Assembly: GCF_006345805.1 (NCBI RefSeq)
Contig: NC_043013.1
Span: forward strand, 53,444,001 to 53,508,000
DNA: 64,000 nucleotides
Reading direction: 5' to 3'
Source: Octopus sinensis
Lineage: Eukaryota
This document shows, piece after piece, positions 9,760 to 42,190 of this stretch. The position numbers and the translations under genes were made by a program. Numbering within the stretch: position 1 is the first letter of the stretch; every line of letters begins with the position of its first letter. Under the pieces are notes generated by a model. It had not been told where the DNA came from. It saw only the letters and a list, made by a program, of their open reading frames with translations, and made no database searches.

Positions 9760-9762
<3 letters not shown>
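9574..9762. mobile_element. Short fold-back element with degenerate HHR-like motif, in (TA)n
   Basis: Arms tatgctttattaaaaagcagcaaaaatatc / gatatttgtgttgcttttgaataaagcata plus unpaired tail; homologous to 52262-52336. Confidence 0.6.
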
Positions 9763-9821
<59 letters not shown>

Positions 9822-9828
9822 TATGTGT

Positions 9829-10041
9829 GTAACTCGTAAACACCAGTCGTTTTTTTTTTCTCTATCCCTGTTGCCCGCTTTGGATCTTTCTTTCCTCTCT
9901 CTTCCTTCTTTGTTTCCGACGAAGAGCTCCGCTCGAAACGTCATACCCTCCTGCTTCCATTTCCTGGCGCCTATTAATAATAATACTGTAATTGTTCCAT
10001 TGTTGTTGTTTTTTTGTTATCCCGTTTGGATTAAAATTATA
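9829..10041 (+). repeat. 5' pseudo-LTR
   Basis: gtaactcgtaaacaccagtcg...cgtttggattaaaattata, repeated at 15973-16189 with few differences. Confidence 0.93.
9910..9946 (+). ncRNA. Hammerhead-like motif in 5' pLTR, variant core CCGACGA
   Basis: gttt-CCGACGA-a-gagc-tcc-gctc-GAAACGTC-atac; GUC triplet, minimal stem III, stem I with one mismatch. Confidence 0.65.
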
Positions 10042-10358
10042 CCACTGCGCGCCTACACGGACCCCTTGTACCTTGGATACCAATTCCCGGATTTTTGCAC
10101 CTACGGATTATTGTCACCATTCTTCCTGACCTACGGATCACCTGCAACCTTCTTCCGGAGTACCGCCATTATCGTGATTGAAAATCATTACCTAATCTGT
10201 CCGTTGACTCTCAAATCTCTTTCCTGACTTTTTTCAACTTTTTTCTCTTGTTTTCAAACCGTCTTCACCCTTTTTCTTCTTTTGTTGTTTTCCTGTTGTC
10301 TCTCCTTTTTCCTGTTTCGCCACCACCCACCTTTACCTGTTTGCCACCACTTCTCATC

Positions 10359-13180
10359 ATGCCTGACTTGCACTCGTTCGTCCAACACCTTCAATCCCTC
10401 CTCAGCCGCTACCTCGCGTTCTTCCCCCCACAATGTTCCGCACCTGCTATAAAACTTTCCCGCTTGCTTTTTAAGAAAACCCGCCATTCTAGCCATCTTT
10501 CCTTTCTTAGCCGGTGCCTCCGCCATCATGTCACACCCCGCGGTTTCCTCTTGAAGTTCCACGCTACCCCCCCTATTCCTCCCCCCCTTCATCGAACCCA
10601 CCCTCGCTCGTACCTCCCGCTCCCTCCTCCGCGCCACCATCCGCTCCACCCGCCCCCTCCTTGACTCCCTCGACCATCAACTTCCCCAGGCCTACCTCCT
10701 TCTCTCCGCCCTCTGCCCTCCACTCTTCACCCAACCTATCCTCCGCTTCATTCTTAATCTCAACCACCAACTCTACAACTACCTCCACACACAAAAAACA
10801 AATACTCCACCTCCTCCTCGACCCTCACCCCCTTCCCCATCCTCCCCCACTGTTCCCCCTCCTTCGCACCTACCCCACCCTCCACGGACCCCCCCACCGT
10901 GACCTTCCTACGCCTAACCCATCTTCACCCAACCACCCCTACCCTCCCCTTCACACCCCTGCACCCCCTCCGCCTGCCCCTAGTCCTCCCACCACCCCGC
11001 TTCCTCCTCGCGCTGTGTCACTATACCCCCCAACCTCCCCCTCTCCGCCGCTGAGCGCTCCCTCCTCAGTAAGGGTCTCCGCTTCACGCCACTCACGCTC
11101 CACTGTGATTAGTTCGAGACTCGGGCGGACGTCAACCTGTTCCTGCGCCGCCTCAAACTTTGCACATACTACCACGCGTCCCCGCAGCGTCACAATAATC
11201 AGGATTGCCTTTTGGAGCTGGGGCGTCGTCCATCCATCTGGACGCCGCCCCCAGGCCTTTTCAGTAGCCTAGATTCGTTTGTACATGACTGCAACGCTTT
11301 GGTCCACCGTTTCAACTTTGAACCAAGACCCCGCCGAGCCAACCTCACTCGGGCCGAATCCATTGCCCTTCGCCACCTCCGCCGTCGTGATGACATTGTC
11401 ATCAAACCGGCGGACAAAGGCGGGGCAGTGGTAGTGTGACGCGCGGACCTATACAGGGAGGAAGCGCTCAACCAGCTTCAAAATCCCCTCTTCTATCGCC
11501 TCCTCCCCTCCGATCCCACCTCCTCCTACCAACAGCAAGTGTCCTCCACCATCCGCGACCTCATCTCATCCTCCGCTCTCCCCCTCACCGCCACCAACCT
11601 CATCGTCCGCACACCCCGCACCTCCACCATCTACTTCCTTCCCAACATCCATAAACCCTCTAACACTGGCCGTCCCATAGTCTCTGCCTGTAATTGCCCC
11701 ACTGAACTCATCTCCCTATACCTCGACCGCATCCTGTCCCCCTTAGTCGCAGCCCTCCCATCCCACATACACGACACCACCACGCCCCTCCGTCTCTTCA
11801 ATTCCTTTTCCTTCCCTTCCAGCCCCTCACACCTCTCATTCCTTTAGATGTAAAATCCCTGTACACAGTGATTCCCCACAATGACGATCTCCTAGCCCTC
11901 CAACACTTCCTCGACCGTCGTCCCGACCCCAGCCCCAGCACCCCCACCCTTCCCGTTTGGCTGAGCTCGTCCTCACCCTCAATTGCTTCACGTTCGCCGG
12001 GGAAACGTACCAACAGGTGTCCGGGGCGCGATGGGAACTAGGATGGGCCCCAATTTCGCCAATCTCTTTCTTGGCTACATTGAAGCCCAAGTGTTTTCTG
12101 CCAGTTCTCTGGGCCGACCCCCGAACTATACGGTCGCTATATCGACGACTGCGTAGGTGCCACCTCCCTTTCCGTGAACTTCTCTGCCAATTCATCTCTT
12201 TCCTTTCCAACTTTCACCCCTCTCTTCAATTCACCTCCACCATCTCCAACACCTCTGTCAACTTCCTTGACATCTCTCTCCGCATCGATCACCCCTCCAA
12301 CTCTCTCACCACCACCACGCCTTCTTTAAACCTATGGATTCCCACCTCTATCTCAACTTCTTTCTTCCTCCCACCCCTTCCACACCAAACGAGCCATCCC
12401 CTACTCCCAGTTCCTCCGCCTCCGACGTTTGTGCAGCCACGACCAGGATTTCGAGACCCAATCTCATACCTGGCCCGCATGTTCAGACTCCGAGGTTACC
12501 CACCCATACTCCTCTCTGATGCCCTCACCCGCGCGCCGTCTCCTTCCCGCCGCCCACCCCCCAACCGCACCCCCTTCCCTCCTTTTCCACCCCTCTACCC
12601 TACCCCTTCGTCGCAAGATACTATGTGCCTTCCGTCGCCTCCAGCTTGATCCCACCACCCGCCCCATTTTCCCTAACCCACCCCTGTCCTCTTTCAAACG
12701 AGCCCGCAATCTGCGTGACCTCCTGGTCCACAGCACCCTCTCTCCTTCCCCCTCAGCCCCACACGGATCATTCCCTTCCTCTAGATCCCGCTGCAACACT
12801 TGCCCCTTCATCATCAACACCACCGCTGTCACCGGCTCCAACCAGCATACTGTACGCATTAGGCACTTTTTACGTGCACCTCGTCTGGCCTTATTTACTG
12901 CATTAAATGCAACCTATGCGGGATGCTGTATGTAGGACAGACGGGACGCCGGTTGTCCGACCGTTTCACTGAACACTTGAGGGACGTTCGCCTACAATCT
13001 TTTTCTCCCGTCGCACGCCACTTCCGCTCGGCCGGCCATTCCCTTGATGACATCTCAGTGTTTGGTCTCGCCCCCCACAATGGTCGCCCACTTTCCAGGC
13101 TCCACTTGGAGCAACGCTACATCTTCACCCTACAAACTACCACCCCACACGGACTTAACACACCCCCTCCTCTTGAGATC
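10359..13180 (+). pseudogene. Penelope-type reverse transcriptase + Cys-rich linker + GIY-YIG endonuclease, with frameshifts and stops
   Basis: ATG 10359; HLSFLSRCLRHHVTPRGF; LLSKGLRF; IKPADKGGAVVV* (TGA 11437-11439); NIHKPSNTGRPIVS; DVKSLYTVIP; AMGTRMGPNFANLF; YIDD 12138-12149; FLDISL; RCNTCPFI; IYCIKCNLCGMLYVGQTGRRLSDRFTEH; TPHGLN. Confidence 0.93.
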
Positions 13181-13199
13181 CCCTTTTTTTTTTCCGGAT

Positions 13200-15900
13200 A
13201 CACCACCCACACACACCCACCCACCTACCTCCCACACGCTTTCACACACACACATACGTAGACCCATCTACGTACATACATTCACACATTTAATCACACA
13301 CACTTATAGACATACATGCACACACTACATACAACCCAACAACGCACATACACACACACATACCTACATACACACACACATACATACTTACACACACACA
13401 CACACACAGACATACATACACACATACATACACACATACATACGCACATACATACACACACACTCACACACACACGCCGCACGTACATACTTCACACACA
13501 CACACATGCACACATACATGTAGGCACACACATACATACATACCCACACATGCACACCCTTACACTGAATGCACACACACATACACCTTTTTGCATCCAG
13601 GCAGCCCCCCCTCTTTTCTGCTTTCCGGTTTTGGCTGATGGATCCTCGGTTCCCGCGTAGCGGGGCGTTCGAGGGCCTTTGCGCTCGCGCGCCTTGGCGC
13701 GCGCTGGGGGCTTGGTCGGCCCCTTGGGCTTGCGTTGTACTGCTTGCGCGTTGTGTGCGTGAGCGCGCTTCGTGTGTGTGGGCTTGCTTCGGATGTGCGC
13801 GTGCGTATGTATGCATACATACCCACACACTCGCATGCATCCCTACCCACATACATACACGCACCACCTACTCACAACACACACACATCACACACACACA
13901 TACCCGCACACACACACATACATACATACACACACATACCTACTTCAGACATACACACACACAGACATACACCCATACACTCACACTCACACGCATACAC
14001 ACACACATACACACGCACACGTACACATACACATACACACACCACACCTACATACATACATTACACTTGCACACACACACTTACATTCATACACACACAC
14101 ACCTACACAGCCATACCCTCACTCATACACACACACCTACCTACACATACACACTACCTACCACACACACACAAACACACGACACACACCCCTACATACA
14201 TACATCTACACACATACACACCTACACACATACACACACATACATAAACACACACACATACACATACACACACATACGCACACACACATATACTTATACA
14301 CATGCACACACACACACATACATACATACACCCATACACATACACACACACATACCTACATACTCCTATACGCACATACATACACACAGACATACACACA
14401 CACATACTTACACACACACTCACCTGCACGCGCACACACATGCATGACAAACACCCATACACTCACACTCACGTACGCACACACCAACATAAACACGCAC
14501 ACGCACACACACACCTACACTCCCACACACATACACACGCACCTACATACACACACGCACGCATACACACGCACACACACGCATACACACATACATCACA
14601 CACGTACACAACACCTACATACACATGCATACACAACACACACACAACATGCACGGACACACACCCATACATACATCACCTATATACACACGCCCACACC
14701 CTACATACACACCATATACACACGCCCACACACCTACATACACACACATACATACACACACATACACGGACACACCCATACATACTTACATACATACACC
14801 TATACACACACGCCTACACACCTACATCACACACATGCATACACACACACATGTACGCACATACACACCACATATAGCGCACATACATATATACCCACAC
14901 ATATGCACACACACACACATACGCACATGCATGCATGCATGCACACGCGCACACCTACACGCATACACACACCACACGCACGTACACATACATACATACA
15001 CACACACATACACACACCCATACACATACATGCATCCTACACACACATACATACACACTCACACATACATACACACACACACTCACTCACACACACCTGT
15101 ATGTACGCGCACACACATGCACATACACACACTTCCACACACCCACACGTACATACATACACACTCATACACATATACACACACACACCGGACATACATC
15201 TATGCACACACATATATACACACATACTCACATACATTTCATCGGACACACTGACACCCAGACCACACACAGACACACTCACACATCCACACACCATACA
15301 CACTTACGCGCATACTCGCAGGCGCGCGCACACAAGCGCTTGCGCCGGTTCGCGCACGCATACGCGCCGCATGCACCTCGCTCTTGGACCCGACGAGGCT
15401 CTCCCGCTCGTTCCTGGGACCGTCGCTTGGCGTTGGGTTTTCCCACGCCCGTCTCCGCGGGACCACTCTTCCATCTTCCCCTCAGCTGGAGTCCTTTTTC
15501 CTTAACCCCCCCTTTTTTGTTACACACCGCGCGCACACATATACACACTTGCTTAATATATACATTACTCTACACACACATTCAATCTACTCGCCATTAA
15601 TACTACCACGACACTGGACACACACACACACTACTACTCAACACACGCTGGCACGCTACATACGCCCCCACCCCTCCCCCTCCCTCCCTCCTCCTTCCTT
15701 CTTTTTCTTACTCCTCTACTATTTACGACCAGTGCCTTATGCCTACCACTGCCTCGCCCTACACCTCACACCGCCTACACACGACGCACACACTAACACA
15801 TACATATATTTTTTGTTTTTTTATCTCGCCTCACACACACATACACACACCACACACGCACACACTCACACATACACACACATCTGTTTCGTTACCAACC
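13200..15900 (+). repeat. Degenerate (CA/CATA)n tract forming the element's 3' UTR, with two GC-rich islands
   Basis: Lies between ORF end and 3' pLTR; G-poor on + strand except ~13600-13810 and ~15305-15495. Confidence 0.9.
13624..15490 (+). ncRNA. Predicted long-range RNA duplex, arm 1 13624-13802 with arm 2 15306-15490
   Basis: Colinear antiparallel helices, e.g. gatgga/tccatc, ggttcccgcg/cgcgggacc, gagggcct/gggttttc, gggggcttggtcgg/ccgacgaggctctc, tgtgtgcgtgagc/gttcgcgcacgca, tgtgcgcgt/acgcgcata. Confidence 0.75.
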
Positions 15901-15972
15901 TTGTCTCCACTCTTTTGCCTTTAAAAACCTACTTTGCTCTTGTTATTGTTAAACTTCCGCCTTTCACCATTG

Positions 15973-16189
15973 GTAACTCGTAAACACCAGTCGTTTTTTT
16001 TTTTCTCTATCCCTGTTGCCCGCTTTGGGATCTTTCTTTCCTCTCTCTTCCTTCTTTATGTTTCCGACGAAGAGCTCCGCTCGAAACGTCATACCCTCCT
16101 GCTTCCATTTCCTGACGCCTATTAATAATAATACTGTAATTGTTCCATTGTTGTTGTTTTTTTGTTTTCCCGTTTGGATTAAAATTATA
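15973..16189 (+). repeat. 3' pseudo-LTR
   Basis: Direct repeat of 9829-10041, runs into (TA)n. Confidence 0.93.
16056..16094 (+). ncRNA. Hammerhead-like motif in 3' pLTR
   Basis: gttt-CCGACGA-agagctccgctc-GAAACGTC-atac, same core as the 5' copy. Confidence 0.65.
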
Positions 16190-16449
16190 TATATATATTA
16201 TATAATATATAATATATATATTATATAGATATATATATAATATATATGTATGTATGTATGTATATTGACTGCTGATATTTAATCCAAAGTATGCAATTTT
16301 AAAACTCAAAACCGTATAATTGAAGGCGGATAAACATTATATAAATCCTACTTGACGCTATCTTTAATAAAAACAAAGATTTATATTAAAACGCGTAACG
16401 TTTTGTTTTTGCATTCGTTTTTTTAGGTTTTGTTGCAAGACTGTATCAC

Positions 16450-41232: not shown

Positions 41233-42190
41233 AAGCGGTCAGCTGGCAGAAACGTTAGCACGCTGGGCGAAATGCTTTGCGGTATTTCGTCTGTCTTTTA
41301 CGTTCTGTATTCAAATTGCGCCGAGGTCGACTTTGCCTTTCATCCTTTGCGGGTCTATTAAATAAGTACCAGTTGCGCACCGGGGTCGATGTAATCGGCT
41401 TAATCCCTTTGTCCGCCCTTGTTTGTTCCCTCTCTGTTTAGCCCCCAGTGGGCAATAAAGAAATATATATATTATATTACATTCTATCATATTGTAGTAT
41501 TTATTAAGGCAGTGAGCTGGCAGAATCGTGAGCACGCCGGACGACATGCTTGGTAGCATCTCGTCCGTCTTTATGTTCTAGGATCAAACCCGCCGTGGTC
41601 GACTTTGCCTCAAACAATTTCGGGGTCAATAAATTAAATATAAGTTGAATACTGGGGCCGATTTAATGGACCCGCCCCCAAATGACAAGCCTTATGCCTA
41701 CAGTTGGAAGGATTTTATTATATTACGCTCTACCATATTATATAATTTATTAAGGCGGGGAGCTGGCAGTATCGTTAGCACGCCGGGCAAAATGCGCAGC
41801 CTCGTTTCGTCCCTCTTTACGTTCTGAGTTCAAATTCTGCCGAGGACGAATTTGTCTTTCATCTCTGGGGGTCAAGAAAATAAGTACTAGTTGAACACTG
41901 ATGTCGATGTAATCGACTTAACCCCCTCCCTCCCAAATTTCTGTCTTTGTGTCTATAGAAGATAGGATCATTTAAGGCGGTGAGCTGGCGGAATCGTTAG
42001 CACGCCGGATAAAATTCTTAGCGGCATTTCATCCGTCTTTACGTTCAGAGTTCAAATTCCACCGAGGTCGACTTTGCCTTTCATCCTTTCGAGGTCAATT
42101 AAATAAGTACCAGTTGAGTATTGAGGTCGATGTAGTCGACTCATACCCTCCCCCAAATTTACTGGCTTTGTGTCAAAAATTGAAACCAAT
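41233..42190 (+). mobile_element. Head-to-tail array of four SINE family B copies
   Basis: Heads (a)ggcggtgagctggcagaatcgttagcacgcc at ~41233, 41508, 41754, 41976. Confidence 0.9.

What the first reader, a model, noticed from the sequence alone, without database searches (positions are those of the whole stretch)
13624..15490. Hidden ~180-nt long-range RNA rod closing a 1.5-kb CA loop in the retroelement 3' UTR
Seen: two GC islands pair colinearly: 13624-30/15484-90, 13637-42/15470-75, 13648-57/15456-64, 13663-68/15445-50, 13671-78/15435-42, 13706-19/15390-403, 13746-51/15362-67, 13752-64/15348-60, 13782-87/15318-23, 13794-802/15306-14. Helices contain many G.U pairs and are separated by small, often symmetric pyrimidine loops (UU/UU, UCCUC/ACUCU). 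The arms are poor DNA inverted repeats but good sense-strand RNA partners, which points to an RNA-level structure rather than a recent duplication. I know of no such module described for Penelope-like elements. Possible roles (inference): RT/RNP recognition, template positioning, RNA stability or export, editing decoy, small-RNA precursor.
Basis: partly seen in the sequence, partly recalled or inferred. Interest (0 to 1): 0.9.

Follow-up and report, generated by a model that had tools for sequence, protein, structure and literature searches.

The report
RNA editing fossilised in a retrotransposon
A jumping gene in an animal genome carries two matching RNA arms 1.5 kb apart that began as an inverted copy of one segment; half of their A letters then became G, likely through the host's RNA-editing enzyme and copying back into DNA, and later generations of the element kept the predicted pairing, which suggests it acquired a use.

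Summary
Confirmed, and the origin is traceable. The arms lie in the 3' UTR of a Penelope-like retrotransposon (likely Neptune clade). They form a predicted sense-strand duplex (-220 kcal/mol, z -10); the outer ~145 nt are firm, the inner ~35 nt ambiguous. 76 of 100 fetched relatives carry both arms.

An older sister subfamily has the segment only once. Against it, both arms of early rod copies show A>G on the sense strand at 41 of 82 A sites, versus T>C at 8 of 86 (p 4e-9; ORF control 1 of 100). This is the footprint expected of ADAR hyper-editing of an inverted duplication, fixed by reverse transcription.

Along the master lineage, A-U pairs fell 60 to 31, G-C rose 74 to 94, helices shortened and stability held. 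Pair-breaking changes are depleted on internal branches (128 observed, 166 expected) but not on terminal ones (310 vs 309).

The rod is not essential: a rod-less sister lineage and a second family are also abundant. No RNA evidence was obtained, and function is inferred. Ten literature searches found no such case in a transposon.

The parts
9762..9824 (.). (TA)n tract at the 5' flank, likely the insertion target
   Evidence: TRF
9829..10041 (+). 5' pseudo-LTR (direct repeat)
   Evidence: 97.2% over 217 nt to 15973-16189
9916..9940 (+). minimal hammerhead-like motif (C3/G8 core, stem II, GAAA; U4 replaced by C)
   Evidence: sequence; not scored by Rfam; cleavage untested
10254..13190 (+). broken RT + GIY-YIG endonuclease ORF (frameshifts and 8 in-frame stops in the aligned pieces)
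   Evidence: tblastn of the open 986-aa frame of locus L042; Pfam RVT_1 E 6e-4 and GIY-YIG E 1e-3, both below curated cut-offs; 1009 homologues at up to 56% identity carrying PF00078/PF26215/PF01541
13274..13586 (+). first CA-rich tract of the 3' UTR
   Evidence: TRF
13623..13815 (+). left arm: the inverted, heavily A>G-changed copy (firm pairing 13623-13768)
13830..15290 (+). CA-rich, G-poor loop; 195 of 1460 nt paired in the MFE; about 344-1982 nt long in 72 copies
15306..15491 (+). right arm: the original segment, A>G-changed
15973..16189 (+). 3' pseudo-LTR with the second minimal hammerhead-like motif at 16064
16186..16265 (.). (TA)n tract at the 3' flank
   Evidence: TRF

Best explanation
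The two arms are an old inverted duplication of one ~130-200-nt 3' UTR segment of a Penelope-like retrotransposon, whose A letters turned to G on both arms of the sense strand, likely by ADAR editing of the folded RNA fixed by reverse transcription, and whose predicted pairing was then likely kept by selection in the copies that went on transposing. Step 1 (shown by homology): the segment exists once, unedited, in an older subfamily, and both arms derive from it. Step 2 (inferred): a template switch at self-complementary TATA runs made the inverted copy. Step 3 (pattern shown, enzyme inferred): a founder burst plus later rounds changed about half of the adenosines, turning A-U pairs into G.U. 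Step 4 (statistical): master elements then turned G.U into G-C, gained small pyrimidine loops and held the energy near -220 kcal/mol, giving a rod of short helices with few adenosines left to edit. Step 5 (inferred, about 40% likely): the benefit is a clamp that loops out the expanding CA tract, cutting the stretch between stop codon and 3' pLTR from about 2.8 kb to about 1 kb, so that new RT protein finds its own template end or the RNA escapes long-UTR decay, while the short helices would make it a poor substrate for further editing or Dicer.
For:: against five single-segment copies, L109 right arm A>G 17 of 35 A (T>C 1 of 45), left arm read on the sense strand A>G 21 of 44 A (T>C 4 of 34); all 19 arms examined had A>G as the top change. 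controls, same copies: ORF A>G 1-3 of 100 A, first 330 nt of UTR 2-5 of 59-68, pre-pLTR 1-5 of 50-59. In L109, 78 ancestral A-U columns gave 36 G.U, 29 A-U and 2 G-C, while 46 ancestral G-C columns gave 1 G.U. (28 single-segment copies, 22 left and 16 right arms of early rods), each site counted once: A>G 41 of 82, T>C 8 of 86, p 3.7e-9. 10 right and 25 left sites are G in at least 80% of copies, 13 more in 20-80%. Among single-segment copies A>G is 8 of 1034 and T>C 17 of 1396. Changed A with a 5' G: 2 of 7, the lowest class, as reported for ADAR (PMC5625713, passages). About 50% of A substituted in a retroviral inverted repeat is the reported precedent (PMC12925331, passage). None of the 30 best matches to the unedited segment has an inverted partner within 1.5 kb. 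The host has A_deamin genes (17 matches over cut-off)., trunk of 74 rod copies: A-U 60 to 31, G.U 43-50 to 24, G-C 74 to 94; non-A>G changes keep:break 96:119 internal against 134:307 terminal, p 5e-4; pair-breaking changes 128 observed vs 166 expected on internal branches (z -5.4), 310 vs 309 on terminal; summed ddG +22 vs +407 +/- 34 for random placement. The deficit holds in the non-repetitive core (60 vs 86) and in the well-aligned younger part (41 vs 59), and against a null in which every A.C mismatch is repaired (+208 +/- 34, lowest of 22 runs +161). T>C falls opposite G rather than A 40:15 internal vs 29:44 terminal, p 3e-4. Median UTR 2814 nt, 977 nt outside the rod (72 copies).
Against: No RNA evidence: four runs laid on the right arm showed no A>G cluster, and their RNA status is a guess (inconclusive). 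The neighbour preference rests on 7 sites with a 5' G, and 5' U was not the favoured class (10 of 19). In the youngest clade alone the deficit is not significant (16 vs 21.2, z -1.9). G>T changes break pairs as often as chance (34 vs 35.6). Leaving out A>G and G>A, there is no sense-versus-antisense asymmetry on internal branches (C>T opposite G vs T>C opposite A, p 0.59), and 40 of 47 new non-A>G pairs are Watson-Crick, which arm-to-arm correction would also give. Terminal branches also beat random placement in energy (+600 vs +870), probably because deep tips hold unsampled master-lineage history. The rod clade has weak support (48/84) and the root lies in a polytomy. The tree includes the arms. 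A rod-less lineage with 2.6-3.5-kb UTRs has short branches and 355 exact 17-mer matches, which argues against the clamp being needed.
Confidence: 0.62

Rival explanations
1. Same origin (inverted duplication plus ADAR editing), but the later upkeep of pairing is mechanical and not selected: the arms correct each other by template switching or mismatch repair in the cDNA hairpin, and the rod is a functionless passenger.
For: 40 of 47 new non-A>G pairs on internal branches are Watson-Crick; G.U goes to G-C (40) or A-U (15); no strand asymmetry once A>G and G>A are removed. Rod-less lineages thrive. Single-arm deletion copies exist (L085, L090).
Against: Correction should erase loops and lengthen helices, but mean helix length fell from 6.8-8.6 to about 4.5 bp and helix number rose from 17-23 to 33. 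C>T changes that create G.U were accepted 32 times on internal branches. G.U resolves to G-C far more often than to A-U (40:15) although either repair is possible.
Confidence: 0.22
2. The rod is kept as a binding site for a host double-stranded-RNA protein (Staufen-like, ILF3-like or ADAR itself) that exports, localises or stabilises the RNA in the germ line; its length and loop pattern matter, not the looping-out of the CA tract.
For: Selection on pairing without sequence conservation. A core helix (GAUGG/CCAUC) persists from the earliest rods to the window copy. Regular small pyrimidine loops. Retrotransposon RNA stem-loops used for oocyte localisation are known in Drosophila (recalled, no call).
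Against: No binding data. Early rods with long helices and late rods with short ones both transposed, so no fixed shape is required.
Confidence: 0.1
3. No editing enzyme was involved: ordinary mutation plus selection for sense-strand pairing left G.U pairs and removed A.C mismatches.
For: Selection on pairing is seen later in the lineage.
Against: Selection alone would take G.U from C>T as well as A>G, but site-level C>T is 1 of 54 C against A>G 41 of 82 A. Early rods and single-segment copies differ at only 10-21 of 473 ORF columns (L109, L111, L105, L119), far too little time for half of the A to change singly. The element's sense strand is otherwise G-poor.
Confidence: 0.04

Closest known systems
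ADAR-type A>G hypermutation of an inverted repeat in avian retroviruses (Hajjar and Linial 1995; Felder et al. 1994), as summarised in PMC12925331 (passage seen; the 1995 paper itself is not held)
   Same: About half of the adenosines of an inverted repeat become G and are carried into DNA by reverse transcription.
   Different: Here the element is a non-viral germ-line retrotransposon, the arms lie 0.3-2 kb apart, the change is inherited across many subfamilies, and later evolution kept and reshaped the duplex.
Hyper-editing of inverted repeats in metazoan transcripts, including octopus and lizard Penelope elements (PMC5625713, passages)
   Same: Double-stranded RNA from inverted repeats, clustered A>G, G depleted upstream of edited sites.
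   Different: Those edits are RNA-only and arise between separate copies or in palindromes; here they are fixed in the DNA of the element's own master lineage.
Neptune/Nematis Penelope-like elements with minimal hammerheads (PMC8557442 and PMC4209133, passages)
   Same: pLTRs, RT with C-terminal GIY-YIG, Zn-finger-like linker, minimal hammerhead, (TA)n flanks.
   Different: The passages seen describe no long-range 3' UTR duplex; a second family in the same genome has none.
Viroid, HDV and retrozyme rods (search listings only; architecture recalled)
   Same: Short helices separated by small, often symmetric loops; association with hammerheads.
   Different: Linear, part of a protein-coding retroelement RNA, closes a kilobase unstructured loop, and has a traceable origin from one duplicated segment. 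No circular RNA shown.
APOBEC G>A hypermutation fixed in LTR retroelement copies (recalled, no call)
   Same: A host deaminase leaves a heritable mutational footprint in retroelement DNA.
   Different: Opposite direction (A>G), confined to the paired arms, and compatible with continued transposition.

Membership tests
Penelope-like element (EN+) | One ORF with RT and C-terminal GIY-YIG endonuclease | tested here: met
   Open 986-aa frame in L042 with DKG, GVAMG, YIDD and YVGQT motifs. Pfam hits weak and below cut-off, but 1009 homologues with RT/GIY-YIG domains. The window copy is broken.
Penelope-like element (EN+) | Flanking pseudo-LTRs | tested here: met
   217-nt direct repeat, 97.2% identical
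Penelope-like element (EN+) | Minimal type I hammerhead in the pLTR | tested here: inconclusive
   Core-like motif with stem II and GAAA at 9916 and 16064; U4 is C; no Rfam hit; cleavage not testable
Neptune/Nematis clades | CX2-5CxxC Zn-finger-like linker upstream of GIY-YIG | tested here: met
   C-X4-C-X2-C reads in the L042 translation; first Cys is Ser in the window copy; definition from PMC8557442
Neptune (as against Nematis) | Placement in an RT tree with reference elements | not tested
   No named reference sequences were at hand; (TA)n flanks fit Neptune
ADAR hyper-editing footprint | Dense A>G on the transcribed strand, confined to double-stranded regions | tested here: met
   41 of 82 A in arms vs 8 of 86 T>C; ORF 1-3 of 100
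ADAR hyper-editing footprint | G depleted 5' of edited A | tested here: inconclusive
   2 of 7 with 5' G against 38 of 64 with A, C or T; small numbers
ADAR hyper-editing footprint | Inosine or RNA-DNA differences in transcripts | tested here: inconclusive
   No A>G cluster in contigs of three runs only guessed to be RNA; the DNA run gave 2 reads
Viroid-like or retrozyme RNA | Small circular non-coding RNA, tandem hammerhead units | tested here: not met
   The rod is part of a 6.4-kb protein-coding element with pLTRs; circularity not testable
Known Rfam RNA family | Match at gathering score | tested here: not met
   15 matches in 9800-16300, all far below gathering and mostly on CA/GU repeats

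The most novel reading that the evidence does not exclude
ADAR plus reverse transcriptase act as a heritable ratchet that builds new RNA structure: an accidental inverted repeat is edited, the edits are written into the next master element, and selection then tunes the scar into a stable, editing-resistant, viroid-like rod with a real job. This lineage preserves the whole series from unedited single segment to mature rod, and the same route may have produced G.U-rich long-range duplexes in many retroelements and rod-shaped RNAs.
Probability: 0.35. Interest if true: 0.9.

Novelty: new variant of a known kind. Interest (0 to 1): 0.74.

Why it matters
RNA editing is normally erased with each transcript. 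Here its footprint is fixed in the DNA of a germ-line retrotransposon, which implies that ADAR acts on element RNA in the cells where transposition is inherited. The genome keeps every stage, so the birth of a structured RNA can be followed and tested: unedited segment, freshly edited repeat, and a G-C-reinforced rod. It offers a simple screen for other genomes (A>G on both arms of one strand). It also warns that G.U-rich duplexes with apparent covariation can begin as editing scars rather than as designed motifs.

Tried and rejected
Rfam: nothing at gathering score. Protein search with the endonuclease piece among longer proteins: no hit. Sequencing runs: no RNA holder listed; laying three guessed-RNA contig sets and one DNA run on 15295-15830 gave no A>G cluster and almost no DNA reads, so present-day editing and expression are open. 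A 14-nt pattern for the duplication junction was too common to use (1536 matches, control 833). No copy with a still-unedited perfect inverted repeat was found among 30 single-segment loci or 22 early-rod loci. The short G/U island in L044, L047, L050, L098, L121 and L122 first looked like a smaller rod (-52 to -63 kcal/mol). Rejected: its energy per base is at the level of host flanking DNA and it proved to be the single unedited segment. Second family: 40 loci fetched, 38 outside the rod family or not matched, none with arm homology except L161 (a separate downstream arm) and L164 (rod family); one locus (L137) was mis-oriented; nine UTRs read are short and rod-less. Distant relatives from metagenomes: 27 of 80 loci had at least 1 kb downstream and were scanned; none had a long-range G.U-rich duplex scoring like the rods (155-230), but element ends were not defined, so this is weak. 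The antisense scores are inflated by (GU)n self-pairing and were not used. Three rod copies (L070, L129, L130) were missed by my anchor patterns and are not in the 74-copy tree. Earlier scan findings: none returned. Literature: ten searches gave no report of edits fixed in a transposon lineage or of such a rod in Penelope-like elements; subscription journals are mostly outside the library and no supplements were opened.

Full report
Setting. The finding lies in a 6.4-kb, C-rich and G-poor island (about 9830-16190) in AT-rich, microsatellite-dense DNA. It is a Penelope-like retrotransposon: 217-nt pseudo-LTRs 97.2% identical, each with a minimal hammerhead-like motif, (TA)n flanks, and a broken RT + GIY-YIG ORF whose open counterpart in locus L042 is 986 aa. 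The C-X4-C-X2-C linker places it with Neptune/Nematis by the definition in PMC8557442 (passages). The genome is 2.72 Gb. It resembles a cephalopod genome, but that is recall and untested, and the argument does not depend on it.

The observation. The listed helices are present. The two arms give a sense duplex of -220.5 kcal/mol against -147.9 +/- 7.1 for shuffles (0 of 300 as low); the antisense duplex is -172.5 (z -6.6). No Rfam family reaches its threshold.

Distribution. Exact 17-mers give 251 left-arm and 509 right-arm matches, as 5' truncation would predict. I fetched 100 loci, 10 chosen by the left arm and 90 by the endonuclease. 76 carry both arms: 73 recovered and three more seen. Duplex energies in the 74-copy set, window included, run from -170 to -268. 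Rods persist in subfamilies whose arms BLAST no longer links to the window (L105, L109, L111, L115, L119). The other 24 loci: 6 have the segment once, 5 have a left arm only and no downstream pLTR, 1 has a partial right arm, 2 have lost the left arm, and 10 have no segment (7 of them complete or nearly complete copies of one rod-less clade).

Origin. The single-segment copies (L044, L047, L098, L121, L122, partly L050) match the right arm directly and the left arm as reverse complement. None of the 30 best genome matches to this segment has an inverted partner within 1.5 kb (these were chosen for likeness to the unedited form). The single segment is the median of the three versions: where a right arm differs, it has G for A; where a left arm differs, it has G for A on the sense strand. 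In L109 this is 17 of 35 and 21 of 44 adenosines, against T>C at 1 of 45 and 4 of 34. The ORF of the same copies shows A>G at 1-3 of 100, and two UTR controls 1-5 of 50-68. With 28 single-segment copies, 22 left arms and 16 right arms, and each site counted once, A>G is 41 of 82 and T>C 8 of 86 (p 3.7e-9); C>T is 1 of 54. 35 sites are shared by at least 80% of early rods and 13 by 20-80%, which reads as a founder burst and later rounds. DNA-level mutation of an inverted repeat would be mirror-symmetric. Same-strand A>G on both arms is what editing of the folded RNA followed by reverse transcription gives (inference). The level matches the nearly 50% reported for a retroviral inverted repeat (PMC12925331, passage). 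The 5' G class is the least changed (2 of 7), in line with PMC5625713 (passages), but numbers are small. The genome has A_deamin-domain genes (this family also includes ADAT1 and ADAD, recalled). Both ends of the early left arm sit at TATA runs, which suggests a template switch (inference). With a second family as outgroup, the root falls among single-segment and early-rod copies; the later rod lineage (96/97) and the rod-less lineage (99/89) both leave that cluster, while the rod group as a whole is only weakly supported (48/84).

Later evolution. The 74 rod copies form a ladder. Along its trunk, predicted A-U pairs fall from 60 to 31, G.U from 43-50 to 24, G-C rise from 74 to 94, and energy stays between -207 and -271. 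Mean helix length falls from 6.8-8.6 to 4.5 bp, the longest helix from 17-23 to 13, and loops become 87% pyrimidine. Terminal-branch changes break pairs exactly as often as random placement predicts (310 vs 309 of 614). Internal-branch changes do so less (128 vs 166 of 390, z -5.4), and cost +0.06 kcal/mol each against +1.04 at random. The deficit holds in the non-repetitive core (60 vs 86) and the younger half (41 vs 59), is not significant in the youngest clade alone (16 vs 21), and survives a null that repairs every A.C mismatch (+22 observed vs +208 +/- 34). The A>G excess fades with time: on older internal branches 46 A>G against 47 T>C with A half as common as T, on younger ones 14 against 41 with A about a third as common. 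Against a pure selection reading: new pairs are mostly Watson-Crick (40 of 47), G>T breaks are not avoided, and no strand asymmetry remains once A>G and G>A are set aside. Arm-to-arm correction is therefore not excluded.

Function. The rod is dispensable at the family level. A sister lineage without the segment has 2.6-3.5-kb CA-rich UTRs, short branches and 355 exact matches to a diagnostic 17-mer; a second family has short rod-less UTRs. Within its lineage, closing the rod shortens the stop-to-pLTR path from a median 2814 nt to 977 nt while the loop varies from about 344 to 1982 nt (72 copies). A Penelope-like RT starts reverse transcription in the pLTR region of its template in vitro (PMC11167929, passages). 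I therefore favour a clamp that offsets the expanding CA tract, at about 40%, over a protein-binding site or a passenger. This step is inference only. Read data gave nothing decisive.

Comparison and novelty. Each ingredient is known: editing of inverted repeats, its capture by reverse transcription in retroviruses, and Penelope anatomy. Ten searches found no report of edits fixed in a transposon master lineage or of a long-range duplex in a Penelope-like 3' UTR. Seen: passages of PMC8557442, PMC12925331, PMC5625713, PMC11167929 and PMC4209133, and the first fifth of bioRxiv 10.64898/2026.07.22.740005; others as listings only; no supplements. A scan of 27 of 80 distant relatives showed no similar rod, a weak negative.

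Verdict. Real feature. Origin by inverted duplication about 95%, ADAR as the cause about 88%, later selection on pairing about 70%, clamp function about 40%. New variant of a known kind; interest 0.74.

Noticed in passing
L131-L170 (e.g. G000:C10:76461758-76463842): A second, young Penelope-like family in the same genome (about 70% nucleotide identity in the endonuclease) with many long open frames, a short CT- then CA-rich UTR, no rod, and a hammerhead-like motif with a variant core in its pLTR.
   Followed up: partly
window 9916 and 16064; most fetched copies: The pLTR hammerhead-like motif has C in place of the usual U4, conserved across rod and rod-less lineages; activity unknown.
   Followed up: no
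window 10300-16000: The whole element's sense strand is strongly G-poor (GC skew -0.43 to -0.78), so its RNA is predicted to be largely unstructured outside the rod, while the antisense strand would self-pair through G.U.
   Followed up: partly
L043, L045, L048, L108, L118, L120: A young sister lineage that lacks the segment altogether yet carries CA-rich UTRs of 2.6-3.5 kb; both young lineages have thus lost the unpaired, unedited form of the segment.
   Followed up: partly
L119 UTR 690-1000 / 1750-2105; L069; L115: Some copies have extended rods (L119: -358 kcal/mol, 248 pairs) through expansion of GU-rich repeats at the inner end of the left arm; L115 and L117 also carry further, near-perfect inverted repeats.
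   Followed up: no
window 41750-42174: A 222-nt unit repeated 1.9 times (81% match), GC-richer than its surroundings, likely a tandem pair of a SINE-like repeat.
   Followed up: no
L050 UTR from about 1300: An unrelated A-rich stretch with Cys-rich endonuclease-like coding features follows the truncated element, possibly a piece of another Penelope-like clade.
   Followed up: no
runs X4, X7, X12-X14, X18 (organisms B, C, D): The element's words are also held at 0.28-0.53 share by runs labelled as three other organisms, so the rod family may extend to related species; X18 contigs show a variant right arm.
   Followed up: partly
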